Assembly: GCA_008632985.1 (NCBI GenBank)
Contig: QPGO01000034.1
Location: forward strand, 139,311 to 203,310
Reading direction: 5' to 3'
Source: Psammoneis japonica
Taxonomy: Eukaryota
DNA: 64,000 nucleotides
A program made the translations under genes and the position numbers. Positions 17,481-57,380 of this stretch are shown piece by piece. Every line of letters starts with the position of its first letter. The stretch's first letter is position 1. The notes under the pieces are model-generated. The model made no database searches and had not been told where the DNA came from. It was given only the letters and a program-made list of their open reading frames with translations.

Positions 17481-17742
17481 ACAACGCTTGCGTCTGGCTG
17501 AAATTCACAACCGCCAAGACCTGGAATTCATAAAATATATTCATATCCATATATCTTCTTCATGGCTGTTCATCAAGAATAATCCAGTGCGTTCAGCCGC
17601 AATGAGGCAATGGTGACACAGCGCAGATCGCCCATGGACACCGGACCAGTCTAAAGCCATACCCAGGTATGGGTACATCGCGTTTCTAGCGTTGGATGTT
17701 GGGAATTCATCGGATTAAAAGAACTAGAAAGGAAAGGACACA

Positions 17743-28336: not shown

Positions 28337-30488
28337 GAAACCGGCGTGTCTAGTTGGCGTAGCGTCATGAGCGAACGTCCGGAAGTCTTTGTGGTGATCG
28401 ATGCATGAGAGTGTTGAGGGTGGCGGGCTGCGCCTGTTGCCCTCTCATTTCTATTACGTTTTTTCTTTTTTATTATTAAAATTTCCTTTTCAATAGGCAG
28501 TTTTAGTAACGAAATTCAAACCAGCATCTGTCACATAAGAACCCGTTGTTGTCGAAAAAGAATTCCCTGTTTAGTTGCAGATCCTGTTCTGGGTCCATCG
28601 AAATCGCCACTGATTGATGTGTGCCACCGGCTCATGCTTCTCTTCCAAATCCTTGTGTTTTCTCCTGCTTTGTCTTCTGGCAGTTCTGTCACCAGCCCTT
28701 CATTGAAAATCAGGTTTTGCTGGTCGTAAGGAGCAGAAGCCAACTCGTCCTCCCCTTCGTTTTGTGCTGCTGACCCAAGTGACATGGCCAGATTTGAGCT
28801 TCATCACATTCGCCATCACCATGCCAGTGCCAATGCTGCCCTTGCTCTGCTTGTTGTGGTCAACTCTTCATCAAAAAGCCAGCCACCACACCAGGTTGAC
28901 AGAAGAGCCCCCCCTCCCCAGCTGCTGATGACTTTCACACTTTGGATCACAGTCGATGATGCTGTTGCCCTCGAGGATCGTTTCGCTTTCCACAGCACCG
29001 GCAATGCTGTTGCTGATGGCCACCTTGACATGCACTTGATGAAGATTGAGCTTGAGGGAAATGAAAAAGGACTCTTCTGACGATGACGCAGCCGTGGCGC
29101 TGAATTGAACGCCACTGCAGGGCCAGTCCGCCTTGGCAACACGTTCACTCAGCTCCCACCAACCCGCACGTGCAAAGGCATGATCGTCGGCTGCGAAAAA
29201 CGTGTTGCCAACCAGACTGTGACTCCCATGATGGGAGCCAGAGCGAGAGCCGCCACGGTCGCCACAGCAAACAAAGCGCTCAGCAACGCCAACAAACGAA
29301 AGCGAGCAGGGCATTTCATGATGTTTGTGTAAAGAATGAGCAGCTGCAGTTGCAGTTGAGAGTTGTGCACTTCTTGAAAATCGCACCGGAACCAGGATTG
29401 ACAAGAAGTGAACAACAACACACCACGACTCCAAAATGCACTTTGTGCAACAATGCGGGTGCGAACTCGCTTTCCACCGCCAGCCAGTCATCCACAAAAT
29501 GCTCAGAATCGATCTTGTCAACCGTTCTGACGTTGATCGAGTGTCTCAAAAAATTGAGACACGTCATCAAGAATTGGGTGATGGGGCTTTCTGACACATC
29601 AGCATCAAAAGCACTGACACACCGTGCCTTTCATTGACCTTCAACTTCCTAAATGCCATTCGGAACTTCACCCGTCATCTTCGCGAAGTCAGGACCAAAA
29701 TGACACGGATCCACTTGGAATCAAAACCGCATCGAAACTTTGATGGTCAAAAGAGAGAGATGCATTTTCTTGATGTGAAAAGAGTGGTTTTGGCAACCGC
29801 AAAAAACAAGGCACTTGCTCCACTTGTGCACTGGTGGTTTTGCCACTGCCTGTGGTTGGTTGAGAGGCTCCTGTTTTTGCCAAAATGAGGGGCTGTGCTG
29901 CGGGCTCACACCACACATGTGCAACAGAGTTGGAGAGCTCTGGCATGTGTGCTGTGTCACTTCCAGGGCAAACAAGGATGAGTTGGAGTGTCTTGGGACA
30001 CTTCTTGGAAAGATCCAAGAGAAGAAGCCTGCTGGTGGGGTGCCTGTTCCAGCTCCAGGTGATCTGCTTTTCATCACACTAGATTTTCTGCGCAGTTTTC
30101 AGTGCCAGACATTTTTGTCTCCACCCGGCAGAGCTTCCACTTTTTTAATTTTGCAAACATTGATTGTTCAAATGATGCCATGTGTTTGTGATGTTTTGGT
30201 GCTCATCTGCAACAAATGAGGTGCATGTTGCATCACAGGAAGAATCGTGTCAGTTGGCATTTGATGTTTTTCTGCCAATGCGCAGAACAACCCTGACTTC
30301 CATGAACATGTGCCATCCACCCAACACACACACCAGCCACAATGCAGCACACCGCTGTCACCACTCCACAAGAGCCCCCTCTTTGATCTCACTGTTGCAT
30401 GGAACCGTCTGCTCTTTTCATTTCAAAGTTGTGTCATTGTCATCACAATGTGATTGTGGCTCCAAAGAGTTGCTGTTGTTGTGGATGA

Positions 30489-31194
30489 CACCATCTCTTT
30501 GCATTCTCTTGTTTCGAATTTGGCAAGTTGATTTGTCGTGGTTTTTTTTGCACGTCGTGTCTCCGTGCGCATGCATTTTTCTGGTTGCTTCTCACATCTC
30601 ATTTTATGGTTGTTTTTCACCAGGGCCTTCGGAATTTCTGCAAAACTCAAGCATTTGCCCAAACATTCTCCGAACAACAGTTGCTGCTGGAACAAACTTG
30701 TCTTGGTTTGTTTTCACTGTGACGCTTGCTGTTTGCACTTTTCAGCATCTAGAGCTGCCTTGGAGGCTGCCTTCGTGGCAACTGACATTGGCCCCCTCTC
30801 TGGAGTGCATTTGTCGCACAAGCAGGAGCTCACCATCTCTTTGCATTCTCTTGTTTCGAGTTCGGCAAGTTGATTTGTTGTGGGTTTTTTGCACGTCCTG
30901 TCTCCATGCACGTGCATTTTTCTGGTTGCTTCTCATGTCTCATTTTATGGTTGTTTTTCACCAGGGCCTTCGGAATTTCTACAAAACTCAAGCATTTGCC
31001 TGAACATTCTCCGAACAACAGTTGCTGCTGGAACAAACTTGTCTTGGTTTGTTTTCACTGTGATGCTTGCTGTTTGCACTTTCCAGCATCTGGAGCTGCC
31101 TTGAAGGCTGCCTCTGTTCATCCGCATGATGACTTTTGTGGTGACTGACGTCAGCCCCCTCTCTTGAGTGCTGCATTTGTCACACAATCAGGAG
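30489..31194. repeat. Tandem duplication, 342-bp period, two copies
   Basis: caccatctctttgcattctcttgtttcga occurs at 30489 and 30831, and the copies stay collinear for ~340 bp. Confidence 0.95.
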
Positions 31195-31199
31195 TGCAA

Positions 31200-34100
31200 A
31201 AGCAGTGCAATCACCATGGACACATTGGCCAAAGCAGCCTCCCAGCAGTGTCCCATTGGTGGCAGTTCCCTTCAAGCAAATGACAACTCTTCCAGCACAT
31301 TGAAGGTTTCCTTTTGCGTCCAGCATCGCGTCTGGGCACTCGAGGAACATTGCCCGCTGCAGGGCAAAGCCAAAACTTGGCACACTGTGCCTCTCCAAGA
31401 TGCAGTTGATCCCCTTGCATGCCCACAAGGTCTTGTAGATTTGAGCATCTTGACCACGGAAGATCATGAAACCAAGAAGATGAGCCCTCTCTTTTGTGTT
31501 CTTCATCACAAGAATGGTTTCGATGGGTTCAACAGTGTCAAAACACGGAACATGTTCCGCAACACTGTTGTCCATTGGTTTTGTGTGAAACATTCAATGC
31601 TGAGAATCGACCACAACTAAACCAACACATCAAGGACAAGAACCAGCACTCTCTTGATGTTGGCTGTGGCGCCATCAGTGATGTTGATGAGGGACGCCAT
31701 GCAGGACAAGCAAAACATTGCTGCTGTTTTGATGCACCGTGTCAAGACAAACACAGGCCTGCTTGTTGATCACGTCCATGTGACAGAATCTCAGGTTGTG
31801 GAGGTCGGGATGGGTGATGAGAGACAATCAATCATGCCATCAAGTCAAGGCATTTGTCCTTTTTTGTTGGACTTGTCCAAGCCATTTGCTGTGGTGTTGT
31901 CAAGAAGATGGATGCATCATGTCTTCATTGTCAGAAGATGTCGAAGTCTCATCACATGGGAGTGATGGGTTTCGAGGACATCACAGACACCATGAGTGAA
32001 CGTTCTGACCTGGCGGACATCCGCAAGCACTGGGAGTGGGATCATCTCATGCAGAATGACAGAGGCAACACGGTTGCCCTGTGTGCAAAGGAGATGATTG
32101 CTCCAACAATGAGCTCTGCAATTGTTTTGGCATTGCCTCATTCCAGCCCAGAGCATCAGAACGTCACAACAGAGATCTGCAGTGATGAAGACTTTTGGAC
32201 TTCCTGAAGGAGCATGCATTGCTGATCATTCGTGCTTTGCCAAGCACCAATTCCACAAATCATCTTTTGTCAACATTCAAAACCCAGAAACGCACGATCA
32301 TGAAAAGTTGACCAAAGATTTAAGCTCAATGAGTGGCTGCCTTTTGGCAATGTTGTGCACAGAAGTTGGTGGCAAATGAAGTCTCCAAATTTGATGAAGA
32401 GCCATTTTAAATGTTGGCTTTGAAGGGGTTGCATGTCAAGTTCTGCCATGAAATGAGACATCCTGTTTTAACTGCGAAACAGCACTGGGGTTCAATCAGC
32501 AACCATTGCTCTGTTCCAAATGAAATCGCTCAGAGGAAGCAGGTGGACAAAAAGCTGCATCAAAAACCATGCCTCAGCTGTGAGAAGTTGAGGAAGGGCA
32601 ATGTGGATGACAGCGATGATTGTGTTTTTCACAACAAGCATTGCAAAAAGGAGAAGCTTGAACAGTCGGATGATGACATGGAGGAAGATCCCTGCATTGC
32701 CAAACTTCCCACCGACGTAAAATGCAAAGTGCCCACAAGCTGCATGATTGGCTGCCGGAAGGTTTTCTCATTTGGACCATGCAACCCTGGTGAGACACTG
32801 CCATCAGAGGCATTGTTTGACATTGTTGCAGGTTGGTGGTGCAACCACATGTTGCGGATTCCCTCTGGTGGTGAAGACAAAGACTTTAAGCTGCAATGAT
32901 GCTCTGAGTCAGTGGAGGCCGTCATCAAAGACAAGCACATCTTTGAAGTTCACTTCCCTGCCAGACCAAGCAGGAAGGGCTGCTGCAAAGAGCTGCTTGC
33001 TCACCTTGCTGATTGGTGCAAGGCAGCTCCAGGACTTGCATGGCACAAGTTTTGCAGAAGGATTCATTGCCATCGTTGCATGGATCATGCCAGTGTCTGT
33101 GATGCAAGGATGAAGGCAGAGTTGGGGGAGGAAAAGGAAGAGGGGAAGGAGGGCACTGAAGTGGCGGATGACCTGCAAAAGGCTGAGGCTGGCACTGCAA
33201 GGTTTCAACTGTGAGACAAAACCAGGAGGAGCAAGATCAAGGTGGGGCCATGGATGAATCGACTGAGGAAAAGGAGGAAGATGATGGTGTGCGAGACAAA
33301 ATCCAGGAGGAGCAAGGTCAAGGTGGGGCCATGGCTGAATCGACTGAGGACAAGGAGAAGATGATGACCAGGAAGAAGTTGACAAAGCCAAGGGTGCAGA
33401 AGACTCAGCACTTGGAGACACAAAGGCAGAGAAGAGGGAGAGAGTGGGAGAAGCGTGTCACAGACATGATGTGAAGCTCATGAAGAAAGACACAACTGGA
33501 GTGAGCAAGGATGAGGATCTCATTGGCCTTCACAGCTCTGGGCCAAAACCAAAGGCAAAAGGAGCCACTTCATGGCATTGGTTGAGCAAAGAGCAGCGAC
33601 ACCAAGAAGAAAGGGATCAACTTGATTGTGAGTGCAAAGATGCTCAAGTGATGTTGTGGGTTAAAAAACTCACTTGGGTTGATCCAAGTTCATGGAACAG
33701 CAGGCGCCAGCATCCTGGTGATCCAAATTTGCTTTCAAGAAAAAAACGAAGGTGTCATGTTGTGGAAAAAATGGTTTGATGTGCAACACAATGAAATGAA
33801 CGGCCATTCCATGGACATGCATGTGTGGCCCTCATCGCACGTGCCGAACACAAACCAAACGTTCCCATGCAACTCAATCGAAAATGCAGGAACAAGATTA
33901 AGAACAAGGTGCAATCAATTTGCAACCCACCACAGATTGCCAAACTGAAGAGATTGACTGAAGCGGAGATTCAAAAACTTCCACCTGTTGGGCAGGGTGC
34001 TGATTTCATTGGCTGCAGCTTGGAGGGGAACTGTCCCATGTGTGCAACCCCAGATTGGGCTGAGTGCAATTTCAAGTTTCGGTTTCCAGATGTGTGGAAT

Positions 34101-34620
34101 GATTTGAAAGTGTTGAAGCCATTGGATGGTTTTTGCTCCTTGCCAGAAGGAAACGCATTGATGTCATTGAACAGCAACTTGCCGACGAGCGGCCCACCTG
34201 TGAAATTCCTGCAAGGACAAAACGACACTTGCATTTTTTTGTCTGTCCCTGGCCAGTGTTCTTGATTGTGCTGGCGACGTGGAAATGAGAGACTGCATTG
34301 CTTCTCACATTCAAACATCTGCCAACTGTGCCAACGCTGACAACAAGCACATGTTGTTTGCAAAGCACATGTTGAATGGTCATTTGAAGGGAAAATTCCC
34401 ACCTGCAAACTCAAACATTGGGTTTTGCAGCAGTGTGGATTGAACAATTTCCTTGGAAGCAGGTGGTGAATTTGATGTGACGACCTGCAATGATGACTTC
34501 ATAACTTTGTGCCATCTTGTGAACAACCACTGCATTGCCTTGCACCATGGTTGGATCTTTGATTCCAACCACCCTTTTGCATTGCCAGCAAAGGACATCA
34601 AGTGCTTGAATTGGTGAATT
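31200..34620 (+). pseudogene. Decayed large TE-associated ORF ending in a possible papain-fold (C39-like) domain
   Basis: Broken frames with protein-like text, an acidic tract with an ~80-bp tandem repeat (33211-33365), and C-terminal QGQNDTCIFLS...NHCIALHHGWIFDSNHPFALP...LNW. Confidence 0.45.
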
Positions 34621-34649
34621 GGGAACAAGGAACATGAGGTGCAACATGT

Positions 34650-37600
34650 GGCAAAAAAGCATCTGCAACAAGTGTTCATGTTGCACCAGTTTGAACTTCC
34701 AAGGGTGGTGCAGCAGCAGTTGCATGGAAAAAGGAAAGCTTTTGTGTTGGGTGGTTGATCTGGTCACACAATGCAAAGTGACAATCACAGTGTTCGTTCA
34801 TTTTCCCATTGCCATTTTGTTCATCCAACTCATCACTGTCGCTGTCTCCTGCCGCACTCTCATCATCCTCTGCAGTGTCCTCCTTGTTGTCATTCTCTCC
34901 CTCCCACTCATCACGGCCGAGTCACTTTCTCGGCATCATCCATCCCATTTGCAACTCCACATGAACCTGGAGGCACCGCAATCATGTCATGCAATTCAGT
35001 CGCTTCTCGCTGCCGCACCAAGATGCTCGATCCACTGGGACAATGGTCCATGCAAATTTTTGACGGCAAACAAGGGAAACAAGTCATGTTCATCTCGTGC
35101 TGCCATGTGTGCCCCAACAATTCCTTGACCGCAGGTGAAACTGCAGCCTGCGCCCAGCAAGTTAACTTGTTGCGCCAGCAAGGTTGAGCAAGACCCGAGC
35201 CTCGACACGCATTTTGTTGTGATCTCTCCCGGACATTGGAAACATTTCTGGACGATCTGAACTGGGAAGTTGTTTTGTTTGGTGATTTTAACACGGATTT
35301 TCGAAATGACACTGACTCACTGGCCCACTTGGCGATGAGATTCAAGCTCTCCGACGTGATGTGCAACAAAATGCAGGATCTTGAATTCGCCACCCATCTC
35401 CGCGAATCCCGCCGAACTTGATTGTGTCCTTGCCACCTCAGGAGCTCTCCAAGCTGTCACAAAATGCGGTTGTGAATCGTTCGGACATAGAATTTCCTCA
35501 GATCACCATGCCTGCCATGTGGACTTTGACACAGAGTTGTTGTTTGGCAATTCTTCCGCCGCGCTCCCTCGCCCATCCCATCGAACCCTTCTTGCAAAGT
35601 CTTCGAAGCATGTTGCGACTTGCCTCGAAGCCATCGGTCCAATGCTCAAGAGCCGCAATGTGTTAGATCGAAGTGCAGCACTCCTTGCATCTGAAGAGCC
35701 GGACCATGCCCTTGCAGAACGGTTGGACTGCGACATGACACAATTTTGCATCTCCGCAGCCAAACATTGTCGGTGTCATCATGAACCAGAGTGGTCTCAA
35801 AAACTTGTGGACTTGCGCAGCAAAGTCTTCATCCTGTCTCGCCTTCTTTCTATGTTCAAAAACAAGACCACCTTTGTGGAATCGATTGTTCATGAAAAAT
35901 GCAAATTAAAGAAGTCGTTCCTTCTCCCAACTGCTTTGGAGGAATGTCAGAATGCTCTCCAACGTGCCCAGTCCGAATGTAAAAAAGTTGCTCGTGACAG
36001 TCTACATCACCGTGAACGCAAACGTGATGCTCGGATTGCAGAACTAGATCTAGAAGGCACCAAGGCAGCAACTGAAGAGGCAAAGATTCTTTGGAATGTC
36101 AGATGTGCAGAAGAGATGTTGCGAGTGTTCCGAAAAATCAACGCGTTTGAAGATGAGGATGGTTCAAGTGTCAGCAAAGCACAGGTCCCGGCTGATCCTC
36201 TAGAGGATCCCAAGACATGTGAACATTGGGAAACAACAGACGCTCACAAGATGTCGCTGCTGCCCTGACAGCACAGAATCAAAAACATTTTGGACAAGCT
36301 CATGGCACTCCTCCGACCGTTCCTCCTCTGTTGATAGATCCAGGGTACGAAGGCAACACCATCATGGTGGATCTTGTTCTTGACGGCAAGTGTCCCACGT
36401 CCGGATTGACAGAAGCTGCGGCTTTACTGATTGAGCATCTCCGGCGACGAACCCCAGTGTCAGCATCCAATTTCCTCACACCTGAAGAAGCCAGTGGGAA
36501 ATTTAAGTCGTGGACAGAATCCACCTCCACTTCGATCAAGTCCGGTCTTCATTTAGGCCACTTTAAGGCCATGCATTCTAAGCACATGTGTTCTTCAGAA
36601 ACGGATCCACAAGGTGATCCCACCATGAGAAGCACTGAATTGGATGAAGTCCAAGACAGCCTGTGACAGATCCGCTTGAATCTGCTAAACTGCGCACTCA
36701 AATGGGGACATTCTTACGACAGGTGGTGTGACGTGGTCAATGTCATGATCTTCAAAGAGCCAGGCAACAACAAGATCCACCGTCTCCGCGTGATCCACAT
36801 GCATGAAGCGGACTTCCAGTTGATCACCAGTGTGAAATGGCGGGCCCCAGCACAACATGTGGAACAACGCCGATTGTTCAACCCAGGCATCTGCGGTGCT
36901 CAAACTTTCCTGTGTGCTCAGACTCCTGCATTCCTTGAAGTTTTAATGTTGGAGACATCAAGGGTTTCTCGCAAGACGTCAATCACGAGTGATGATGATT
37001 GCACCTCATGTTGCGACAGGAATCTCCCGGTCCTCATGGCGATCACATCAGACAGTTTGGGTGTGGAACCATCAGCAGTGGCTGCAGCAATCAAAACTGT
37101 CCATCTGGCCAGGTGCTGGTTGCTCACCTTGTCAGGTCTCTCTGAGGACTTTTACTCACACAACGCAGAATGCCCCATCTGCGGTGCTGGCCAAGGCAGT
37201 GGCAACTCCCCTTTTTGCTGGAACAACTTGTGCAGCATTCCATTCGATGTCTTCGACTCCAAGGCCAATGGAGCGTTCTTCAAATCACCAGACAGGTCTC
37301 ATCAGCTCAACATCTGCACAAGAGGACACGCAGACGATGCGCCCAAGCAGACGAATGACTTCAGAGCATCACCTCAGCCTTCCGCAGAAGATTTAACTCC
37401 CAAATTGCAGCACAACAACCAACTCTGGTGCGACTTGCTCCACGCTGGCGGACACGAACTGGAACTCCCCAAGTGTTCCTTTCACGCTGTCGATTGGGAC
37501 TTCTCTGAATTTGGTGAGCTGAGCCTCCGACCGTGTGACCAAGACATGTCTGTGGAAATTTTCTCAGCCGATTGCTCCACTTCCAGACACAGCAAGCAGC

Positions 37601-40600
37601 TGTTTCCCTTTGCTCCGCATGAAACACTGGGACACCACCCTTCCCCAGCTGGGACGCCAAAGAAACAGCAACAAGTGCTCCAAGCCAAGAGTGATGGAAA
37701 AGCGTCATTCATTCGGGCTGTCCCTCTAGACCGGACCGAATTGTGGAGATGCCACCATGCATGTCATTTGCCGTCGATGTCTTTTGTTCTTGCTGACTCT
37801 CGCTTTGCTTCCAAAGTGCTGAAACAAATGCAGCAGCGCACTGTGAGAGTCATGTTCGCCAAATGTGGTTGCAACAGGAATGCAAAGTGCTTGATGCCAC
37901 ATGGCCCTCAATCTCTTGGTGGCAGTGGGTTTCATTCTCTTGACATGGAACAGGGAATTGCCCAAATGCAGCAGCTGTTGAAACATTCTCGAGGCGCACA
38001 GCATCTTGTTCAAGATGATCAACCATGCGCTGCAGCTCACATTGCAATTGCATGGAATCAGCTGCATTTGGGCACTGGGGTCAGCTTCCTCAGAGACGTT
38101 GACACTCCTCATCCACATGACCAGTCACTGTGGTTTGCATCAGTTCAGTCTTTTCTGCAGAGCATTGGAGGCTGCATTGCATTGTCCCAAGATGGAGTGC
38201 TCCCCTTGCAGAGAGTCAACAATCAGTTTTTAATGGATGTTGCTCTGGAGTCACAAGAATTCACTTGAGAGAAATCCGATGGATCAATTGTTGCCGCTTG
38301 TGTCTTCGGGTCCTGACAGTCTCAGACATCACTCTGGCAGACGGATGCTTCTTAGACGAATCCAAAGTCTACGGCGATCCCACTTGCCTCAGCAGTGTCA
38401 GTGCCCTCAACAACGTCGAACAGATTGAACCTTGCCACCATGCATGGAGTCCTTGGATGCGGTCATGTGAGTTGTTGTGTCATCAAGACTCAGTTCGTTT
38501 GAAAGCTCCCTTGGGAGACTGGCTCGTGCCCCCTTCTGAAATGAGGATGCAATGTTCAGCGCATTGGTCTCCCAAAGAATCACACCCACACATTCGATCT
38601 CCATCAGGATTTGACATTTTTCCAGTCCAGGACACTGTTGCTGCGTCGCTGCGCCAAATCGAAACGGTTCCCTCCCCCTCTGATTCTTCATTCCCGGTTG
38701 AGATTGTCTCCACAGACGACAGCAGATGGAAACACATTCCTCATTGCCTGAAACTCTTGGTTGAAACAACTTCACCTGCACCTGATCTATTCACAGACCG
38801 CTTGCAAGCATTGCCTCCCTGGGAGTCCTCTCTCTTTTCAGACATTGATTTCCACATTCCCGTTTGTGAACTGATGGACTGTTTTGCATCAAGTCGCCTG
38901 GTTGCGGGCAGCGACGGATCCGCACTTCATCATGATGCAACCTTCGGATGGACGATTGCATTCAATGGCAGACCCTTGGTGGATTGTGCTGGTCCGGTGT
39001 CTGGTCGTTTGCCATCATCCTGTTGAGCTGAGGCTCACGGTTTTCTCTCCCTGATTTGGTTCATCTATCGTCTGATGGAGTTTTGCAAGATGTCAATGTA
39101 TGAAGGTGTCAACAACTGGTGTGACAACAAGGCCTTGGTCTGTGTCCTTTCCAGATTGTCTTCCAGCCACCTGTCCATCAACCCGTCGCCACAAGAGCAT
39201 TCCGACAGAGACTTTTGTCTGTGACAACATGATGCCAATGTTCTTTCATCTGACTGGGATGTTGTCAATGAAATGCACTTAACGCTCAAAGCCATTCCTC
39301 AGGCTCTAAATCCTTCTTCCCCCGGGCAGGCACCATCCACAGCTTGGGCAAAAGGACACCAGGATGGACAAGCTCCAGTGGAGACCCTCCCACTGAATGC
39401 ACAAGTCAATGTACATGCAGATGGGTTGGCAGGAAGATGCCAAGGACAACATGATGCAGACACAATGGAGGTGCTTCCCTTTCCCCATTGTCAATCATGC
39501 CTTTGCCTCACTGATGGAATGGTCACTGCAGGAATGAAATCCATGGTCAGACATGCCACAATGGCTCCTGCTCTCTTGGCATGCATTCGGGAAAGAAACG
39601 ATTGGGATGAATCCATCACAGAAAAGATTGACTGGAAGGTCCATGCAACATTGGTGTGCAGGTGCTCCAAGAAACAAGCATCCACGGTTAAACTCATCCA
39701 CGACCTCCTTCCAACAAACAAGATCACTCATCAGCACAATCCTGTGTGGCCACATCACTGCCTCACGCGCAAACACCCTGTGGAGGATCGCGACCACATT
39801 TTAAGATGCCCTGCCAACGAGGCCTGGCATCGCAAATTCCCACAGGGCGGGCAAAAACACTGTGACAAAATTGACAAAATGCCACCTCTGCACGATCCAC
39901 TGCTGACTTCCCTTGAGACATGGCTGAGAGGTGAGATGCAGCATGAATCAGACATCACCCCAATGCTGCGAATGCCATGGAAAGCCCAGTCAGAAATGGG
40001 ATGGCGACAAGTTTTTAACGGACGGCACTCTGCCCTTTGGAGTGTGTTTCAGGAGATGCATCTTCGTGAGACGGGTCTGTTGGAGAAATGTGGGAAAGAG
40101 AATCGACCTCCTCCAGTGTGGGGAGTGCAGACAGGAACTTGCATTTGGAAGTCCTGGTGGGAACTGTGGGAAGAACACAATCAGGAGGTTCATGGTCATG
40201 ATGCAGATTCAAGGAAATCATCTTTACGACGTCAGGCAGAAGCTGAGCTCACAGCTGTTTGCAACAAAAGACAGGATCATTTGGCCAAAGACAGAGAGGT
40301 GCTGCTGGATTCAGCAGACAACCACATGACCCACTCTACACTGCGGATTGTGAATTGGGTTGCTGTGGTTAAACCACGTCCAAAAGAAAGCCGAAGAAGG
40401 CAAAGCGCGAGGCGCTTTGTGGTGCTCGCTCCATTGCAAGCTATTTTGGATGGGTGTCATCTCATGGTGACGCCCCTTCCAGCTGATCCCAAGAAGCTTC
40501 TGCCACACTTGACGGTGCACTGGAAGTGTGGGTCAGCCGGCGCCCGCTTGGCTGGCAAAGGAGTGACAGCACTTTAAACACAGATCTGGTTTTTTTTTTC

Positions 40601-42200
40601 CTCCCACTCGTCAGTTTTGCTGCTGTTGTGTTCCTCCACCTCGTCCAAACAGCCCTCAAAACAATCCATTGCCTCCCACTGTTGGATGGCATCCAGAATT
40701 CCTTCATGCTCGTCATCCTCAAATGATGTGGATCAAGAAGTGAAGCCTCATTCCTTTTGCATGCACTTGGCAGTTCCAGAGTGGCTGAGGGTTCATTGAG
40801 CTCAATGTTGGCAATTGCAATTTGCTTGAGCAACACTCTTGTCTCACATTCATCAGCATCACCGGGAGTGCACCATCCTCTGGCCCTTGGAACAGGGTTG
40901 AGACATGTTCCCTTGCAATCCCATTCACTGGCCTCAACAGTTGTGGGTGGGTCAAACTCTGTCCACACCTCATCCTCCTGTGCTTTGTGGGGGAGTTCAT
41001 CCCATTGCAGCAGACAAAAGCCCTCCTCAGATTCACAAGACAATGCAGCATGGCTGTTTAGAACAATTTCCTTGGCCATTTCCTCAGTCAGGAAGTCCAA
41101 CACAGATTTGTCAACCAACTGCACCTTGTTGGCGTCACTCTCATCTGTTTGAATCACCTGACACACTTGCCATTGTTCAGCCCCTCAAAATGGGCCACAG
41201 TTTGCAAGCTCAGTTGCCACCTGCATGTTCTGGCTGCTCTGTTGGCTTGACGTGTTTTTCACCCAAGGCCATTTGAGCTCACCCAGGCAGGCTTCACAAG
41301 CACAAGGAATTCTTTGCATGGCAACCCAACCAATGGGGAAAAGAGGTTCAAATTGGAAATGGTGCAAGGCTCTGATGCCACAATGGCGTGTGTGCACTTG
41401 CACCAATCCAGTCAACTTGACTTTGATTAAAGAGCCAAGAACTCCATCAGCTTCCTGCAGACAATGCACCCTTTCTGTTGACTTTTGAAGGGATTCCCTC
41501 TTGGCATGTTTCCTGTTGCCAACTGCACCAAGAGCATTTTTTTCTTTGTGAGCAATTTGCAACATTCCTTGGCATGACTGTGTGCGACTACAATGCCATT
41601 GTCATCCATGACCAAAGCTTCAGGTCCAATTTTCCCATCCTCGTCATTGACTCCTGCAGCAGTTGTGGACTGCATTTCTCAATGCATGAGTGATTCAATG
41701 CAGGCTCCAATGCCATCAACCTTTCCTTTGCCATGTCCAGGTGCTCCAATGGCATGGTCAAACACAATGTTTTGCATTTGTGCATAAACACAGACAACAA
41801 GTGCAGCGCCAAAGCACATCAGCACTGTTTGGCACAACCACAGGTGTGATCCCAAATCACAAGCCATGCCTGACACAGGTTGTGGGATTTTAACCAGATG
41901 ACAAACTTTTCTAAGTGAGCATGGGTGGTGGTGGCATCTTGCTTGCTGAAAGAGTCAGAGAGATGCGCACGATGTGTTTTCTGAAGCACATTGTCAACCA
42001 TGATTGCATCGCAAACTCTTCCTTCAATTGACAATGTTTGGCGTGGGCCCCTTGCTCTTGCAAATGCCAAGAAAATGATGACAGCAAAAGATGGAATGTC
42101 CAGCACACATTGCTGCGCAGCATTGGGCATGCCAGCATTTTTTGCAACAGCCGTCTTCTCAAACAGCCTTGGCGTGCGGCTTTTCGCAGCTCTTGTTCAA
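34650..42200 (-). mobile_element. Degenerate Sola2-like DDD transposase gene interrupted by the LINE
   Basis: Motifs TLSIEG, HLSDSFSKQDATTTHAH, IWDHTCGCAKQC*CA and FDHAIGAPGHGKGKVDGIGA. The acidic C-terminal frame continues across the LINE. Superfamily call rests on the recalled DGC..QY / HGKG..DG.G signature. Confidence 0.65.
34914..40599 (+). mobile_element. 5'-truncated Ambal-like non-LTR retrotransposon (APE endonuclease, RT, RNase H, CCHC) flanked by a 14-bp TSD
   Basis: APE: PGGT, DPLGQWS, LFGDFN, SDHH. RT: MIFKEPGNNKIHRLRVIHMHEAD, TSCCDR, ICGAGQGSGNSP, GHADD. RNase H: GSDGS, SSC*AEAHG, WCDNKAL, AKGHQD. Zinc knuckle: EDRDHILRC. TSD cctcccactc(a/g)tca at 34900-34913 and 40600-40613. Confidence 0.9.
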
Positions 42201-45120
42201 GCAGCCACTGCACACTGACTTCTGGCAGCTTTCAATCAAAGCAACATGCTGCACTGCTGCACATTCTCCTCATGCCAGCTGCACTTTTCTCTTTCTGTGT
42301 CACAGCCTTGCCCAAGTGTTGCCACACTCTGACCTGCGCTGCCTTGCCAAACATGATGAGCAGGAAGACTTTGTTTGTGCAGCAGCACACACACTGAGCA
42401 GGCCAGCAGTCAAGAGCTGAGCAGCAGAGCAGCAACCTTGGTTGGCAGCAAGCCTCTTTTGTGCCCACTTGTGGGAGATTTGAGACAGCATCAACAAAAG
42501 GTGTTGGGTGGAGCGCTGCTGCAGTTTTCTTTGTTTGCCATCATCGCGAGCATCAAATTCTCTCTGCCAAGCAGCACACAGCAATGTTGTGTGGACTGCT
42601 GTCTCTGCTGTTTGGACTGCATTGTGGTTTTTCCACCCTCTCAATCATGGACCAGTTGGTGCCTTGCCTCCCAGCATGAGCACTTGAGCTCAAAATCATC
42701 ATCTTTGCAAAGTTGCAAACAAAATGATGCAAATCAACTTAGAATCAACAGAGTGCATCACAGTCAAGAGAGGCACATCTTGATGAGAGAACAACACCAG
42801 CTCTTTGGCAAAAAAGGGGCAAGACAGCTCACTTGTGTGCCAGCATTTTGCCACTGTCTGTCATTGGGAAGGGTCATTTTCAACAGTGATGCTGCTGGCT
42901 GTTGGCTCCATGCATGAAGGAGAGGGCTTTTGGCATGGTGCACAGCTTCTTTTGAGCTCTTGCAAAAAAAAAGCTGCAAATGGGGCACTGCTCTTTTGCC
43001 AAGAGCAGATCAGAGGGTTTTAGAAGCTCAAGAAGATCATCCTCTGCCAGATGATCATGGCCAAAGTCACGACCAAAATGAAGTGTGGACCAACTCAAAA
43101 TCAACAGATTGCATCATGGCCAAGAGGAGAGGTGCATCTTGACAGGAACAACAGTGGCTTGGCAAAAGAGGAACAAGACAGCCCACTTGTGTGCCAGCAT
43201 TTTGCTGCTGTGTCTGTTTTTGGGGAGGGCCATTTTTGTCAATGAGGCTGCTGGCTCCACACATGAGGGAGAGGGTTTTTGGTGTGGCACACAGCTTCTT
43301 TTGAGCTCTTGCAAAAAGAGGCCTGCATGTGGGGCACTGCTCTTTTGCCAAGAGCAGAGATCAGAGGGTCTTGGAAGCTTGGGAAGATCCCCTGCCAGAT
43401 GACAACAACTTCTTGTGGGACAAATGCAAAAGAAGCCTGAGCTGCAGCAGAGCAGCTTTGGCATCTCTCTCAGCAGCAGCAGCAGCAGCAGCAAAATTGA
43501 AGGGAGGAGATGATGTTTTTACCCCAGCTTGCAAAATGCAAGCAGCACCAAGAGTTGGAAAAATGACGTGGCACAGATTGAGAAGTGAGTGCTGGAGTTG
43601 AGTCAACGTGCCATTCGTGACAAAATGCCATGCCCAAAGTCCAACACATTGCCTTTGAAGGAGCCCTTTGTTGCTGCTTTTTGCAACAACTCAGCATGTC
43701 AACAGCACAACTCCTCATGCTCCCCTGTGTCTCTGGCAGTTCTCAGCAGTGTGGCTGCTGTTCTGTCAAATGCCAACAAAATTGTGATGGCAGCAACAGA
43801 CAGAGTGTCCAGGGCACATTGCTGCACACCATTGGGTGCATTGGCATTTTTTGCACAGACCATCTGCTCAAACCTTGGGAGCTTTTGCAGTTTGTTTTTA
43901 ATTGAAAGCTCTTGCAAACTTGCCCCCAGCTTCCAAAACAAGATGCTGTGCTGCCATGCATTCTCATGCTGCCGCTGTGCTTTTCATTTCCTGTGTTGTG
44001 GCCTTGTTCCAAAATGTTGCCACTCCCTGCCACACCAAACATGGCTGGGCAGACTTTGTTTGTGGCACACACACAAAACAGCCCTCACCCTGCACTGAAC
44101 AGACCAAGGGTCAAGAGCTGAGAGGCAACAGCCACCTTGATGATCAGCAGCAAGCCTCTTTCATTGTTGCTGGTGGGGAGGTTTGACAGCATCAAGGCAA
44201 GGTGTTGGGCCCACTGCACTCTGCTTCTTTGTTTGCCATCATTGCCAGCAGCATTGAGTTTGCTCTGCCAAGCATGCAGAGATGTTTGTGGAGGCCAACT
44301 GCCATCTCTGTTTGGACTGTGTGCTGTGGATTTTGCACCCACCACTCAATGGACCAGACAGTGCCCCCCCCCCCCCCGTGGGTGCTTGAGCTCCGCTTCT
44401 TGAGTGTCATCCAATGTGTTGCCAGGAGAGCAGGCAAACAGCCTCAATTTCCCCAAGTTCCTCAATGTCATCTGACCAGTCCCCAGACAACACTGGGCAA
44501 TGACAAGCTTGCAGCACAGGTGATTCTGGTTGCAGCAGTGTCAAGACTGCCCTGGCAAAGGACACTGGCTCTAAGGTGTTGGTCAAAAATTGCACAAATT
44601 CATCAAAGTTGGCAGCCATGCCCTCATCAAAATTCTGAAACAGGTGCCCCCGAATCCACTGCTGCCATGGCATCAAATGCATCAGAGCACTGAAATGCTG
44701 CTGCCACACCTTGAACATCAGATTCTCTCATCTGCAATGCAGGTGTGCACACAGCACACATGAGGAGTCCATTCAGCACATTGCTGCAGTTTGCCAGCAG
44801 AGGGCAAAGCACAAGTGCACCACATGTTTTGTGTGTTTGGCATTTGTCATTTTTTCATCAGCTGGCACACCATGCAGGCTTGTGTGTTGTGTGAGCACTG
44901 ATGTGCTGCTGCCTCAGTTGCTGCTCTTGCAATGTGCACCTTGGTGTGTGACAGATGACAAAACATCAGATTCTCTCAGCAACAATGTTGGTGCACACAT
45001 GAGTCCTTCGAGCATGTTGCTGCAGTCTGCTGAGGGGGGCAAAGCACAAACATGCCAAAAATTTTGTGCTTGGCGCATGTGCAGCTTTCCATCAGCTGGC
45101 ATGTGTGTGCTTTTGCACCT
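42200..45120. repeat. Cluster of diverged internal duplications
   Basis: ~357-bp tandem pair starting at 42732 and 43089. 42390-42690 resembles 44090-44400, and 44715-44880 resembles 44963-45110. Confidence 0.8.
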
Positions 45121-45819
45121 TCAGCAAGGTCTTCATTGTGGCCATCAGATGATGATGTGCTGTTGCCATTGTTGCACCTGCAATGGAAGAGAAAGTGTCT
45201 TGTCCAAGAACTGGAGTTGGCCCAGCCAGAGTCAATTTGGAGGTGCTGCAAAAGACACCACCAGTCTGCTGTGGAGGGCTCACAGCAGTCATGAACATGC
45301 ACATTGGCAAGGTGCTTGTGCACAGAAGCTTGAGGTCAGCACATGAAGCTCAGCAGCATCTTAAACAGCAATGTGGCAACCAGGTGAGCATCATGAAGTT
45401 TGTCTTGCTGTCACACTGTGGGCAAGAAACAAAAACTGATTTTTGATTCCAAGCCTTCAGATGTTGCCATTTTTCTTCTGTGTGTCTGGCACTGCTGCTT
45501 CAAAACCCAGCATGACTGGCCTGCATGCGGGCAATGCTTCAAGTTGTGATCTGCAGTCAAACATCCTTTCTGACAATCCCACAGGGCATGCTTGCAACAG
45601 AAGGGAGTTCCAGTGTCATGCACCAGTTTGCATGAACAACATTTCTTGGACGTGTCACTCAGCGGCATCCAGTGCAGCATTGTTGGTCATGCCATTTTTG
45701 GTCAGCAAGATGGTCATCTTGAAGAGTGGTTTTAGCAGCATCTTGTGAAATGGGGGGTCAGCACATTGTCTTGGCATGTGGCACTGAAGATTGCTCGGTG
45801 TTTCTTGGTGCTGCTGCAA

Positions 45820-46750
45820 AGGAACAAACCAGTGCCATCTTTCCCACTGAGGATGTCTGGAGCCAATTTGTGAAGATGGGTGCATGCCCCCCTGGGGCAT
45901 TGATGACCAAATCCAGCTGCACAGTGATGCTTGTTCTTGCACAATTCATGAAGTCGCAAACTTCTGAGCGAGGCTTTTGCAAGTTGTCCGCAAGCTTTGC
46001 ACAGCAATCATGCAGAGCATTGCCTTGGCTTCCTTGCCAAGCAGACAATCACATGATGTGACAAATGGTGTGAAGTGACATCATTGGTGAAGACAAGGCT
46101 TGAGATTCTTGCATCTCTTTTGCTCATGATCCGCCAGAACCTGTTCTGGTGTCTTGGGTTGATGTGATGTTGCACCCCACTTCTGGAGCACCAACATCAA
46201 CCACCACATCTGGCTTTTTGCCCCAGATTGCACTCTGGAACAACTGGAATGTTCTTGGAGTTGTCAACAGGATGACAACTTTGCTTGGGTCTGATGTTGT
46301 GCAGAGCAAGAAAGAACTTCTGAGCTGCTTGCTTGAAATTTTCCCGCTGCTGCTGAGTCATCAGCGCACCAAGAGGTGAGTGGGCATTTTGGGGAAATGA
46401 GCACTCATGTCTTGAGCTGGTTGCAGAAGAAGCCCCAGTCCATGTGGCTGCTGCAGTGTCATGCAGCCAACCCCAGCGGATCAACTTGGGCATTGCCACC
46501 TTCCCTGTTGCTGACTGAGCAAGAAGGCCACCTTGCGCCAAAGTGGCTGGGGACAACTGGAATGGCCCAATGATTGCAACAATTGAAAGCAGCAAAAAAT
46601 GGCCAAGCATGTCTCATGTCGTGAGCAACATCAAGGCCCTCCTGCCACTCAGCTCATCATTGAATCCATTGGGTGCATTGATGGGAAAACAGAAAAGTGC
46701 AGTCGTCTTTGAACTTGTGCTGCTCCCTGTTCCCAGAGCACATGCATCGC
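45820..46750 (-). mobile_element. Second, internally deleted CRE-like RLE retrotransposon remnant
   Basis: Fragments PINAPNGFNDE, RHAWP..AFNCCNHWA, REGGNAQVDPLG, KLADNLQKPRSEVC and SRHPQWE(K)DGTGL. Same C-terminus as the 15200-17480 element. Confidence 0.75.
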
Positions 46751-47137
46751 ACAAATGCCTCCTCCTTTGATGCCTGCTGATTTTTGTCTGGCACCAAGAG
46801 CCTCTTTGCTGTGAGAGCCCGATGGGCTGCCGCCCATGGGGGAGATTCGTTGGCTGGCCAGTTTGTGAACATGCATCATGCATGGCGCCTCCCTGAGAGG
46901 CGCACACCTCTTGGCAGTGTTTTTCTTTTTGCACGCGTCTGCGGTTGCCGTAAAGTGTACGTAGGAATTAGTAATAATTTTGAAAGTACCAAGTTCCACG
47001 AATGTTCTACACACGAACACATGGTATTAATTCTACCAAGCTACACAAAAATGATAGTGATTGAGAAATTTAGCAACGGTCACGACACAAACAAAATCTC
47101 TCGGAAAGCGTTTCCTTTCGCGCTCGATTTTCGGTCA

Positions 47138-51689: not shown

Positions 51690-53400
51690 TCGCCCAATTG
51701 CAAACCAGAGTTCTTTGACAACGGCAACAACGACAGCAACCACAGCACAGCTGCAGTCTTTCTGGATCTGGACATAAAAATTGGAGAAGATTGGTGCATT
51801 GTCAGCGTGAACATGTCAAAAACCAGTGGACCTCTTTTTCTGCATGCCTCATTTAACAAGCATCATTCATGGCAACTTGTGATGAGATTCTGGATGCAAA
51901 ACTCTGACACCGACACACCATGATTTGCCAATGCTGCAGAAAAGTTTGTGATGTGCGTGCACACCACAACAACACGCTGGCTCAGCATGATGATTCTTCG
52001 ATGCGGCAGATTTGTGACAGCACACTCACAATCACGAAAGTCAAGCAATGCCCCAATCAAAACCCATCTTGACCAACCAGAAGGACAGCAGGTCTCACCA
52101 TGCATTGAGCTGCTGTCATTGGCCAATGGGGTGAAGTCTTTCACCGCCATGGCAGGTTGTCGATTTGCAAATTTGCAACCACACGCAGGATCCACGTGAA
52201 TCCTCACAACAGCACATGCTCTTGTTTTTCAAATTTTGGGGAAAGGGTGCACTGTTGTGAAGTGTGCAGAAAATTGCGCATGCAAAAAATGCACTGAAAA
52301 TGCCCCAGACCAACGGGCTGCGCAAATCTGGGAAACATGAAGAAAAACGAAGGTGGGTCATGTGCGTGCGTGAAGTGCAGCAGACTGCACACGTGCAAAG
52401 ACACACACATGTGAGTGAGGAGGACAAAGTCAAAACCAAGTTCAAATTGATGACAACCAAAAGGAAACCAAAAACCGTGCACAACAAAAAACAGATTTCG
52501 GCGGGTTCCAGTCCCAGGCGGGACTCCGTGTGATGTTGGGCACGCACAATTCTGCGCGCAAGCTCCGCAGCAAATTTGTGCTGCAACAAAAACATGAATG
52601 ATCGCCAACAGAAAAAGAGGCAATTTTACGAACGCATCTCCTCCTTCACACTTGCAGCACATCATCAACAGTTTGCCCGGGCACATTCTAGAGACATCAA
52701 AGAACACACCCAGCGCATTTTCATTCTCACAAATTTTGAAAACAGAAATCCTTTGGCTTCGCAAAACAGGGAGCATGAAACAATTTCCCAGAATGCATCA
52801 CGTAGAAATGCATGTGCGCGACACACGATGCGATCCAAAAAACTGTTGATGTCACAGTGCAGCAGCACGAGGTCCCACCTGCAGCTGGAGCACGTCTTTC
52901 AACCCCAACCAAATCAAACATTGATGAGACATCAGATGAAATGCACAAAACAGTTGCATTTTGTTGAGCACTTTTGCTGGCATTTTTAAATTCTGCCTGT
53001 TGACAATTTTGAGAATGCACATTAAAAAATGCACAAAGGAAAGTGGAGGCCGCCCGCTGCACCACTGCGGGGCCTCGCTCTGATGTTCACACCCCAGCCC
53101 ACACTGCTGCCACTTTGCTTGACCATCTCTCACACCTTCTCTTCTGCTCCTTGTCAGACTCCACCATGCCAATGCTCCCCCCCCCCAAACAACCATCTGC
53201 ATTGTTCGATGCCTTCTCATTTGCGACTGCCTTTCCCACATGGCTTGCTTTTTGCTTTGTTCTTGGTGGCTTGGGCAGCCACTTGGACAAGTCAGCCAAC
53301 CATCCACTGCTCCCTCCCAGTGGGGCATTCAGAGCATGAGCTGTGTTGTAACCTGAAACTCGACGAATCACTTGCTTCACCCCCTCATCCAAACCGTGCA
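51690..53400. repeat. TpA-depleted decayed repeat island, family unassigned
   Basis: TA is rare and mostly ttaa/ctag, while CG is partly retained. Only spurious Cys/His-rich ORFs. Confidence 0.65.
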
Positions 53401-55511: not shown

Positions 55512-55799
55512 AATTGACAATTTTTTTCTCTCACGAATAACTCCCAACAATACACACTCTTGGTTTTCTAGGATGCCGAAGATTAAGAAGTTTCGATATA
55601 TTCAGTAAGCAGCAATTCAGCGTCCGTTCACTCCCAATTGGCTGGGAGGTCAGAATTGGATATATGGCGGATGCGCTGGCGGTACGATTTTTTGAAAAAA
55701 AGACGGCACCCCCGAACGCGATGCCCACCGCATGATCGTTGCCACTACACAATCGCCATCTTCTTGGGTGAGGCCGGGGGCGGCCGGGGCACGGGCCAC

Positions 55800-57380
55800 C
55801 CTGTTCATGGGGACATCTTGTCAGTGTCTCGGGGTGTGTGTGTTGCCGCACGACGTTGATGATTCTGTGCCTCGCTGTCTGTCTGTGTCTCACAATGTTG
55901 TCACAAAACCAAAAAGATTGTCATGAACATGTCGACATCTCAAGTTTATGCCAAGTTTTTCGACATGTTTGGGCACAGGCGTGTTTCCTGGCTCTCTGTT
56001 TGCAAGTCACAAGCTGAGTCACATCTGTGGCAAGCACAGTCTCATGTCCACTTTGGAGAGTTTCGTGGGGAGCCCTTCTTTTGAAAGGGAGAGGGAGTGA
56101 AGGTCGGAGTGCACAACAAGGTTTGTGTGGGGCCAGTTGCAGCACATGTTTGTTGCTTGCAATCCACAAGTGAATCTGCTCACAACTGCATCTTTAGAGT
56201 GTTTTCATTGTCAGCACAATGTCTTCCAGCCTCTGTGATGTTTTGGGCAACAACCGCCCTCAACAAAGGCGCAAAGAGAAGCAAGCAACTTGCATGGCTG
56301 TGTCGTGCATGTGTGTGCTGCACTCTTGCTGGCTTGCAACCCAATGGCTAGTTAGCACCACTCTGGTGGGCATTAAAGCATCTCTCAAAATGTCCCTGCA
56401 ACAACCTGTGGCATCACAGTCTTTTTCATGATCTTTTGGCTGGTGTGTCGTGGCCCACAGCAGTTTGTGAAATGCCCGTGTTTGGCACCCTCACCCTCAC
56501 AGCTGCAGCCAGAGTGGGGGCTGATCTGGCCACATGTTGAGGCAGTTTGCAAAGACCTGCCTGCTGCCAGCACTTCTGCTGCATCAAGAACAAGAATGGG
56601 AAAGTCGCTCATTCATCTTTTTCATCCTTCCCCACAACTTTGGTGCTGTTGAAGAAGACCAGGAGAGTGAGTGCAAGACCTGGCATGATTTTGCTACCAC
56701 AGGCAATGATGCCTGAGATGCCTGCAAGATGGATGAAATTAAATTGTCCTGAGTCCTGCTTGAATCATGAAGTTGACGGAGAAGTGTTTCATCTGAGGAT
56801 CCAGGTCAACCAGGCCACATGACCAACTTCAAGGATCCACCAGGATCAACCCCATTTGTGATGTCACTGGAAGCTTGCAATGCCAGTGCTCATTGGTGGA
56901 TGTGGTGAAGTCTCCACAAAATTAGAACAGAAAGCTCAACTGGAATTTCCAGTGGCAGCAGCACTGGAACCTGGTGGCAAATGCAAGCCAGATCTGAGTG
57001 GTGGCCACGAGGAATCCACAAAGTGGTTTTCTTCTGTGTTTCTACAGCAATTCATAATTTTGCAACCACGTTCTCTCACTGTAAGGCACATTGATTGGTT
57101 CCATGCTGTCAATGTCCTGCAGATAATGTGGAATCTTCAGCATCATCCAACAGGTCATTGTCTGCTGTGCCGGTCCTTGTCTTCTTCTTCGTCACTCATT
57201 GGCTGTTCCATTGGTTCATGTGTTGATCCCACGTTGGGTGCATCTGTTCTGGAAGCATCCGTCTGGTGGCTAAGGCAAATCGATGTGGAGTGAAATGCCT
57301 GATACATGAGCAGGCGATTGCGCATACATTAACTTGTGCGGTGCACAAAGACATTCGTGAAGGGCACTGAATGTTTCACC
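55800..57380. repeat. TpA/CpG-depleted decayed repeat island, family unassigned
   Basis: Same compositional signature, lying between BET5 and the TruA gene. Confidence 0.65.

What the first reader, a model, noticed from the sequence alone, without database searches (positions are those of the whole stretch)
35150..40580. Surviving TA sites are skewed to YTAR (TTAA, CTAG, TTAG/CTAA)
My hand tally of residual TA in the LINE gives roughly 24 of 40 in Y-TA-R context, versus about a quarter by chance (e.g. gaactagatctagaagg, atttaagt, ttctaagc). The same skew is visible in other islands. A flanking-base preference suggests an enzyme or structure-dependent lesion favouring RTA/TAY. Which strand and base is hit is unresolved, because both TG and CA products occur in YTAY.
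Basis: seen in the sequence. Interest (0 to 1): 0.7.

Follow-up and report, generated by a model that had tools for sequence, protein, structure and literature searches.

The report
Flank code of diatom TpA hypermutation
In this diatom, dead jumping genes have most of their TA steps rewritten to TG or CA after they insert, and comparing young sister copies shows which neighbouring letters speed this up or block it, giving a fingerprint for the unknown enzyme.

Summary
Confirmed: 24 of 41 surviving TA steps in this dead diatom LINE are YTAR, against 17% outside the TA-poor islands and 26% in a TA-rich sister copy. I measured the cause in 21 copies of three young LINE families (941 inferred ancestral TA sites). 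Each copy independently lost about three quarters of its TAs, almost only to TG or CA. Survival was YTAR 0.51, YTAY/RTAR 0.24-0.25, RTAY 0.08. The pair that changes is preferentially the one whose A is followed by C or T (TG share 0.65 in YTAY, 0.37 in RTAR), with no strand bias. A-tracts and an adjacent CpG protect. Loss is patchy over about 400 bp, not strand-coordinated, and tracks CpG decay across copies. This excludes a Pol eta-like process and departs from TadA's UACG motif. A slow adenine deaminase acting on duplex DNA in silenced chromatin fits best (about 0.5); A versus T chemistry cannot be read from sequence. An independent run argues against a base-calling artefact. TpA hypermutation is described in Bigelowiella natans (2026 preprint; no flank analysis in its main text); I found no diatom report. 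This scan noted the process and the YTAR skew before on other pieces of this genome.

The parts
34914..40599 (+). 5'-truncated non-LTR retrotransposon (LINE; endonuclease-RT type ORF2) of a diatom, TA-depleted, ending in a T-rich tail
   Evidence: 88% identical over 5.7 kb to a copy on another contig. ORF2 piece 57% identical to a 1966-aa ORF2 whose homologs carry PF03372, PF00078 and PF13966; the window pieces themselves hit no Pfam family. An empty-site contig skips 34910-40621.
35360..40577 (+). Broken ORF2 in four pieces; 3 Tyr in 1586 residues
   Evidence: 120 homologs have 2.5-4.7% Tyr.
34900..34913 (+). Left target-site duplication (14 bp, one mismatch to the right copy)
   Evidence: Read directly from sequence.
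40600..40613 (+). Right target-site duplication
   Evidence: Read directly from sequence.
35150..40580 (.). 41 residual TA steps, 24 of them YTAR
28606..46932 (.). Large TA- and CG-depleted repeat island that hosts the LINE
   Evidence: repeat depth.
1..1539 (.). TA-depleted island
   Evidence: 2 TA.
6441..9016 (.). TA-depleted island
   Evidence: 5 TA, all YTAR.
11180..12619 (.). TA-depleted island
   Evidence: 14 TA, 8 YTAR.
15327..17529 (.). TA-depleted island
   Evidence: 6 TA, 2 YTAR.
51692..53347 (.). TA-depleted island
   Evidence: 7 TA, 4 YTAR.
55795..57256 (.). TA-depleted island
   Evidence: 12 TA, 6 YTAR.

Best explanation
SHOWN: after insertion, repeat copies in this diatom undergo transitions at TpA on both strands, more than 100-fold faster than at other A:T pairs. 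Written from the A's side, the preferred target is 5'-(A>G,C>T)-T-A-(C,T>G>A)-(not A)-3'. A-tracts and a directly adjacent CpG protect. The surviving YTAR/TTAA steps are the residue of this rule. INFERRED: the lesion is enzymatic deamination of adenine to hypoxanthine, read as G at replication. The enzyme flips the base out of double-stranded DNA, works site by site over many cell divisions, and is recruited to silenced, CG-methylated chromatin patches a few hundred bases long. The enzyme is not identified.
For: Products at inferred TA sites: 2000 TG, 1670 CA, 1081 TA, 18 CG and 7 other of 4776 copy-sites; pure transitions are what A-to-I gives. Per-strand hazard is 0.73 at TA against 0.002-0.004 for A>G after A, C or G. 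Rate model with site bootstrap: +1 C 4.3 [3.7-5.1], T 3.5 [3.0-4.3], G 1.6, A 1; -2 A 1, G 0.72, C 0.63, T 0.43; +2 non-A 2.4-2.9; -3 T 0.37; TACG 0.44, CGTA 0.24. The rare non-TA A>G changes show the same 3'-pyrimidine bias (NAT 0.57-1.10%, NAC 0.16-0.57%, NAA/NAG 0.06-0.21%). Plus/minus odds are 1.05 [0.96-1.15]. Duplex action is suggested by three results. Loss is clustered within a copy up to 400 bp (z 3.5-5.6) while products show no strand coordination (133 of 239 near pairs alike against 0.527 expected). Survival rises from 0.15 to 0.88 with A-run length. Less stable local duplex is not more mutated (rho +0.14 for survival). TA loss tracks CG loss across 21 copies (rho 0.79); DNMT5a methylates TEs in Phaeodactylum (PMC9998398, passages). 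Rates from other families predict 21.4 YTAR of 41 in the window LINE; 24 are observed.
Against: A>G on one strand equals T>C on the other, so nothing here proves adenine chemistry. A slow process of many single events would also lack strand coordination if it acted on single strands. No methylation data were available; CG decay is only a proxy, and shared age could also link the two losses. No unusual deaminase was found. Natural duplex-DNA adenine deaminases are not established to my knowledge (recalled); ADARs are shown on DNA/RNA hybrids (PMC5389660, abstract). In the window copy alone the product rule is not significant (41 of 68, p=0.11; 84 of 126 with a second copy, p=2e-4). The per-tetramer prediction for the window is imperfect (TTAA 14 observed against 8.4 predicted; ATAG/CTAT 6 against 1.2).
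Confidence: 0.5

Rival explanations
1. A TadA/ADAT2-type deaminase acts on transient single-stranded or looped DNA in many small events (the hypothesis put forward for B. natans).
For: TadA-8e prefers UA/TA, and ABE8e off-targets are 94% A>G/T>C, preferentially at TA (PMC12296453, PMC13225742; passages). +1 C is the best flank here, as in UACG. ADAT2-like and TadA-like genes are present.
Against: TACG, the native TadA motif, is protected here (0.44x). TadA-8e shows no clear preference downstream of UA, whereas +1 and +2 matter 2.4-4.3-fold here. There is no strand coordination inside patches, and low duplex stability does not raise loss. The genes found look like ordinary tRNA-editing enzymes.
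Confidence: 0.2
2. The thymine is the base hit: T in 5'-RTA is modified (e.g. O4-alkylated, oxidised, or aminated to 5-methylcytosine) and then templates G, possibly by a methyltransferase-like enzyme that reads YpR steps as DNMTs read CpG.
For: Formally equivalent to the data. T in TpA sits where C sits in CpG. The genome has many C5-methyltransferase domains (27 matches), and diatoms carry RID-related DNMT4 of unknown function (PMC9998398). TA and CG loss co-vary.
Against: CG decay has a much weaker flank pattern (RCGY 0.117 against YCGR 0.097), so the two are not read alike. An adjacent CpG protects rather than promotes. I know of no enzyme with this chemistry on DNA (recalled).
Confidence: 0.15
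3. Error-prone synthesis by a Pol eta/iota-like polymerase during repair in silenced DNA puts G opposite template T at WA motifs.
For: Pol eta gives A>G at WA (10.1101/783118, passages). Patches of a few hundred bases resemble repair tracts.
Against: AA is not a hotspot (0.4% against a hazard of 0.73 at TA). Non-transition states are 7 of 4776, whereas A>C plus A>T (13% + 12%) nearly equal A>G (28%) in somatic hypermutation. Repair tracts should be strand-coordinated, and none were seen.
Confidence: 0.07
4. The skew is inherited composition, codon selection, or a long-read base-calling artefact at modified bases.
For: All three young families show similar loss (about 0.74-0.79 in most full-length copies), which an artefact could produce.
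Against: Inferred ancestral sites have ordinary composition (164 of 890 YTAR), as do 80 related LINE loci from metagenomes (YTAR median 0.16, maximum 0.26; TA o/e 0.47-0.92). The ranking holds in every codon phase. A single-copy-depth contig of an independent run matches 37723-38001 with 4 differences, where the sister copy has 14 TA and the window 13 TG/CA, so at least 9 of these 13 stand in that run. Old islands reach TA o/e 0.02. The run's library type is not on record, and young-family copies were not checked against it.
Confidence: 0.03

Closest known systems
TpA-specific hypermutation of integrated NCLDV and virophage DNA in Bigelowiella natans (bioRxiv 10.64898/2026.01.13.699255; parts 1-3 of 5 read plus a term search)
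   Same: TpA>TpG/CpA on both strands, almost only transitions, about 1000-fold above background, aimed at foreign or silent DNA; TE domains are enriched in its TpA-poor genes; a deaminase is proposed but unproven.
   Different: Rhizarian, not diatom. Measured there by mutation accumulation, mostly in single-copy viral inserts. Its main text gives no flank analysis ('context', 'flanking', 'trinucleotide', 'diatom' occur 0 times); its supplementary tables were not visible and may hold flanks. Here depletion runs to near-completion over TEs and co-varies with CpG decay.
Repeat-induced point mutation (RIP) of fungi (features recalled; RID/DNMT4 link from PMC9998398 passages)
   Same: Repeat-directed, dinucleotide-specific transition hypermutation that kills TEs.
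   Different: Opposite direction (RIP makes TpA from CpA). Three sister copies 86-90% identical to the window copy stay TA-rich, which points to locus-dependent targeting. No strand coordination here.
TadA / TadA-8e (ABE) adenine deaminases
   Same: 5' T requirement, pure A>G, C favoured at +1.
   Different: TACG is protected here; there are strong +1/+2 and A-tract effects; selectivity for TA over CA/AA/GA exceeds 100-fold; no sign of single-strand action.
ADAR-family deaminases
   Same: Duplex substrate, base flipping, 5' U favoured; can edit the DNA strand of DNA/RNA hybrids (PMC5389660, abstract).
   Different: ADARs accept 5' A about as well as U (PMC11120146, passage), whereas AA is spared here. 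G at +1 is weak here. The substrate here is chromosomal DNA, on both strands of the element.
Polymerase eta A:T mutagenesis (WA motif)
   Same: A>G at TA.
   Different: No AA hotspot and no transversions here.

Membership tests
B. natans-type TpA hypermutation | Changes are TpA>TpG and TpA>CpA transitions on both strands | tested here: met
   3670 TG/CA against 7 non-transition states of 4776; strand odds 1.05.
B. natans-type TpA hypermutation | Restricted to foreign/mobile DNA, genes spared | tested here: met
   Islands TA o/e mostly 0.02-0.1 against about 0.4-0.75 in gene regions.
B. natans-type TpA hypermutation | Rate orders of magnitude above background | tested here: met
   Hazard 0.73 per strand against transversion types of 0.02-0.06% in the same copies; relative, not per generation.
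B. natans-type TpA hypermutation | Ongoing, intermittent activity in mutation-accumulation lines; same enzyme | not testable with these tools
   Needs an experiment.
Fungal RIP | C>T, chiefly CpA>TpA | tested here: not met
   C>T at CpA was 1 event in 14826 copy-sites; the direction is the reverse.
Fungal RIP | Homology-triggered, premeiotic | tested here: inconclusive
   TA-rich sister copies exist at 86-90% identity; timing is untestable.
TadA/ADAT2-type editing | 5' T/U before the edited A | tested here: met
TadA/ADAT2-type editing | UACG/TACG is the favoured motif (native TadA) | tested here: not met
   TACG 0.44x [0.32-0.57]; methylation of that CpG could mask a preference.
TadA/ADAT2-type editing | Single-stranded or loop substrate | tested here: inconclusive
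   No strand coordination and no gain at weak duplex, but slow single events would look the same.
TadA/ADAT2-type editing | Inosine product made by a TadA-fold enzyme | not testable with these tools
   Genes are present; activity is untested.
Pol eta WA mutagenesis | AA as well as TA is a hotspot | tested here: not met
   A>G after A: 56 of 13506 copy-sites.
Pol eta WA mutagenesis | Substantial A>C and A>T transversions | tested here: not met
   7 of 4776.
ADAR-type editing | 5' U about equal to 5' A; RNA or hybrid duplex with strand asymmetry | tested here: not met
   AA spared; no sense/antisense bias on the LINE.
Non-LTR retrotransposon (LINE) for the host element | Endonuclease plus RT ORF2, 5' truncation, target-site duplication | tested here: met
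   Homolog domains, 14-bp TSD, empty site; own Pfam hits absent.

The most novel reading that the evidence does not exclude
Diatoms have a chromatin-guided genome defence that deaminates adenine in double-stranded DNA, the first natural duplex-DNA adenine editor. It may be the catalytic-domain-only ADAR/ADAT1-like paralog found here on contig C79 and conserved across diatoms, and the system may be shared with Rhizaria. The ATAY-favoured, A-tract- and CpG-blocked signature is its fingerprint.
Probability: 0.2. Interest if true: 0.92.

Novelty: new variant of a known kind. Interest (0 to 1): 0.68.

Why it matters
TpA-directed hypermutation has one preprint precedent, in an unrelated alga, and no known enzyme. 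A strand-resolved flank signature measured from sister copies turns the search for the enzyme into a direct test: any candidate must reproduce TAY > TAG > TAA, the A at -2 preference, and A-tract and CpG protection. It already excludes Pol eta and questions the TadA/ADAT2 proposal. If the substrate is duplex DNA, it would be a new genome-defence chemistry and a natural adenine editor. The process also erases Tyr codons and TAA/TAG stops, which makes dead diatom transposons look like long Cys/His-rich open frames that miss Pfam and inflates their apparent age.

Tried and rejected
Pfam on four window ORF2 pieces and on a 1966-aa sister ORF2 gave no hits, and PDB sequence search gave none; LINE identity rests on homologs. 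A metagenome scan with one hypermutated RT segment found nothing; an alignment of unmutated homologs gave 80 loci (the best 80 of 217), none TA-depleted (lowest o/e 0.47), and none of 120 homolog proteins is Tyr-poor. So I have no evidence of the process in other diatoms; metagenome assemblies favour collapsed or active copies. Strand coordination was tested in nine distance bins; largest |z| 2.2, not convincing. Shared ancestry or conversion between copies was rejected as the source of products: pairwise product concordance was 42-68%, mostly near half. A shared flank code for CG decay was rejected. Local melting as the driver was rejected (nearest-neighbour energies recalled). TA survival next to a lost CpG (9 of 48) was lower than next to an intact one (211 of 555; p=0.008), but this cannot separate methylation from sequence change or patch dose. 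Enzyme hunt (PF00383, PF14437, PF02137, PF00145) found what look like dCMP deaminase, organellar TadA, ADAT2, RibD and two guanine-deaminase-like genes (names partly my reading of the sequences), two A_deamin genes and many C5-methyltransferase domains; no chromatin-domain fusion was seen in the loci opened, and other deaminase clades were not searched. No RNA holder was listed. No look-alike notes in other genomes. The UV TA photoproduct was considered from memory and rejected because it gives transversions. Literature searches for a diatom report returned only the B. natans preprint as relevant; subscription papers are mostly absent from the library.
Full report
OBSERVATION. The stretch 35150-40580 holds 41 TA steps, of which 24 are YTAR, 11 YTAY, 3 RTAR and 3 RTAY. 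That exceeds the composition expectation of 0.25 (p=5e-6), the non-island part of the window (241 of 1426; p=2e-9) and a TA-rich sister copy (45 of 170; p=1.5e-5). The window alternates between gene regions (TA o/e about 0.4-0.75, CG about 1) and islands poor in TA and CG and rich in TG and CA. All islands together have 62 of 105 YTAR and 2 RTAY.

WHAT THE DNA IS. A window gene (Vps26) has its named best hits in pennate diatoms. The element is a 5'-truncated LINE at about 34914-40599, with a 14-bp target-site duplication and an empty-site contig. Its ORF2 is 57% identical to a sister ORF2 whose homologs carry endonuclease, RT and zf-RVT domains. The genome holds close copies: three TA-rich (o/e about 0.45-0.5) and others TA-poor. 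Against the TA-rich copy on C196, the window kept 18 of 45 YTAR, 12 of 68 YTAY, 4 of 22 RTAR and 2 of 35 RTAY sites; nearly all others became TG or CA (YTAR against RTAY p=2e-4). The TA-rich copies are themselves lightly hit, so they are imperfect ancestors.

DIRECT MEASUREMENT. I aligned three younger LINE families of the same genome (4, 9 and 8 copies, some partial; star-like, 93-96% pairwise). I took 941 column pairs that hold only TA, TG or CA and are not uniformly TG or CA as ancestral TA. Two checks support this. At the 529 CA/TG-only sites, CG was not among the eight commonest outgroup states. At codon-start CA/TG-only sites the top residue among 40 homologs was Tyr in 20 of 36. Sites uniformly TG or CA are invisible; the likelihood model corrects for this and the raw tallies do not. 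Each copy lost 58-85% of these TAs against 2-17% of CGs, while transversion types stood at 0.02-0.06%. States at TA sites were 2000 TG, 1670 CA, 1081 TA, 18 CG and 7 other. Copies resolved sites independently, so the change is after insertion and in DNA.

THE FLANK RULE. On 890 sites with both flanks fixed, survival was YTAR 0.51 [0.45-0.57], YTAY 0.25, RTAR 0.24 and RTAY 0.08 [0.06-0.10], from ATAT 0.02 to TTAA 0.64. The TG share of products was 0.65 in YTAY, 0.37 in RTAR and 0.51 in both symmetric classes, in all three families and all codon phases. So the pair that changes is preferentially the one whose A is followed by a pyrimidine; equivalently, whose T follows a purine. Strand odds were 1.05 [0.96-1.15]. 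A competing-rates model on 832 sites (100 site bootstraps) gave, for the A: +1 C 4.3, T 3.5, G 1.6, A 1; -2 A 1, G 0.72, C 0.63, T 0.43; +2 non-A 2.4-2.9; -3 T 0.37; and extra protection by an adjacent CpG (TACG 0.44, CGTA 0.24). Survival climbs with flanking A/T-run length from 0.15 to 0.88. The rare A>G changes outside TA also prefer a 3' pyrimidine. These rates, applied to the sister's TA sites, predict 21.4 YTAR among 41 survivors in the window; 24 are seen, though single tetramers deviate. In the window copy alone the product rule is only a trend (41 of 68, p=0.11).

SPATIAL PATTERN. Within a copy, TA loss is clustered up to about 400 bp (325 informative sites, z 3.5-5.6 against permutation), yet TG and CA products are interspersed at all distances. 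TA loss and CG loss co-vary across 21 copies (rho 0.79) and weakly within copies (rho 0.18). CG decay has only a weak flank pattern.

ARTEFACT CHECK. One independent DNA run holds 63% of sampled words of 26500-36499. A contig at single-copy depth matches 37723-38001 with 4 differences. There the sister has 14 TA and the window has 13 TG/CA, and sister copies differ by 31-47 letters. The library type is not on record and the run may be of the source sample, but it argues against long-read miscalls. Related LINEs elsewhere have ordinary TA content and YTAR share (80 loci; 120 proteins).

MECHANISM. Pure transitions, a 5' T requirement of more than 100-fold and a graded flank code point to an enzyme (inference). 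Adenine deamination is the simplest known chemistry, but sequence cannot separate it from a lesion on the paired T. Patches without strand coordination, A-tract protection and no benefit from weak pairing favour action on duplex DNA in silenced chromatin (0.5), over a TadA/ADAT2-like single-strand enzyme (0.2), thymine chemistry (0.15) and an error-prone polymerase (0.07). The genome has ordinary-looking TadA, ADAT2 and ADAT1-like genes. It also has a second A_deamin gene on C79 whose relatives in many diatoms carry only that domain; this is a lead, not evidence.

COMPARISON AND NOVELTY. The same TpA>TpG/CpA process is described in Bigelowiella natans (bioRxiv 10.64898/2026.01.13.699255; parts 1-3 of 5 read). 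Its main text has no flank analysis and no mention of diatoms; its supplements were closed and could contain flank data. TadA-8e prefers UA with no clear downstream preference and native TadA needs UACG (PMC12296453, passages); ABE8e off-targets are at TA (PMC13225742, passages). Pol eta-linked spectra contain many transversions (10.1101/783118, passages). ADAR neighbour rules differ (PMC11120146, passage; PMC5389660, abstract). Four searches found no diatom report. Earlier notes of this scan describe the process and the YTAR skew on other pieces of this genome.

VERDICT. Real, and a new variant of a recently described kind. Interest 0.68.

Noticed in passing
L144 and L145 (G000 C301 33500-38500; C297 3000-8000): C5-methyltransferase domains sit inside TA-depleted islands in several near-identical, broken copies; they look like mobile-element-borne DNMTs that were themselves hypermutated.
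   Followed up: partly
window 28953-29340: Matches a 1140-base contig at about 4600x depth in run X2 (single-copy depth about 60); the listed differences are mostly window TG/CA against CG or TA in that contig. Possibly a nuclear copy of a very high-copy element.
   Followed up: partly
window 40590-40599 and the 3' ends of L031, L032, L044-L052, L062: These LINEs end in T-rich tails (T10 or GTTTT repeats) on the sense strand rather than poly(A).
   Followed up: no
L031, L033, L037: Three sister copies of the window LINE stay TA-rich and lie among TA-normal flanks, so escape seems to depend on insertion site.
   Followed up: partly
L137 (G000 C79 343669-346890): Second ADAR/ADAT1-family deaminase gene; relatives across centric and pennate diatoms have only the A_deamin domain.
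   Followed up: partly
L132 (G000 C79 87006-90176): A deaminase domain appears fused to a longer domain that looks like a 2-oxoglutarate/Fe(II) oxygenase (my reading of the sequence; not scanned).
   Followed up: no
L053 1560-7460: A hypermutated young LINE keeps a 1966-aa open frame with 0.36% Tyr and 4.2% Cys; TA loss removes stops and hides the RT motifs from Pfam.
   Followed up: yes
L128 and L129 (C41, C317): A tandem-domain dCMP deaminase gene scores identically on two contigs, which suggests some haplotype duplication in the assembly.
   Followed up: no
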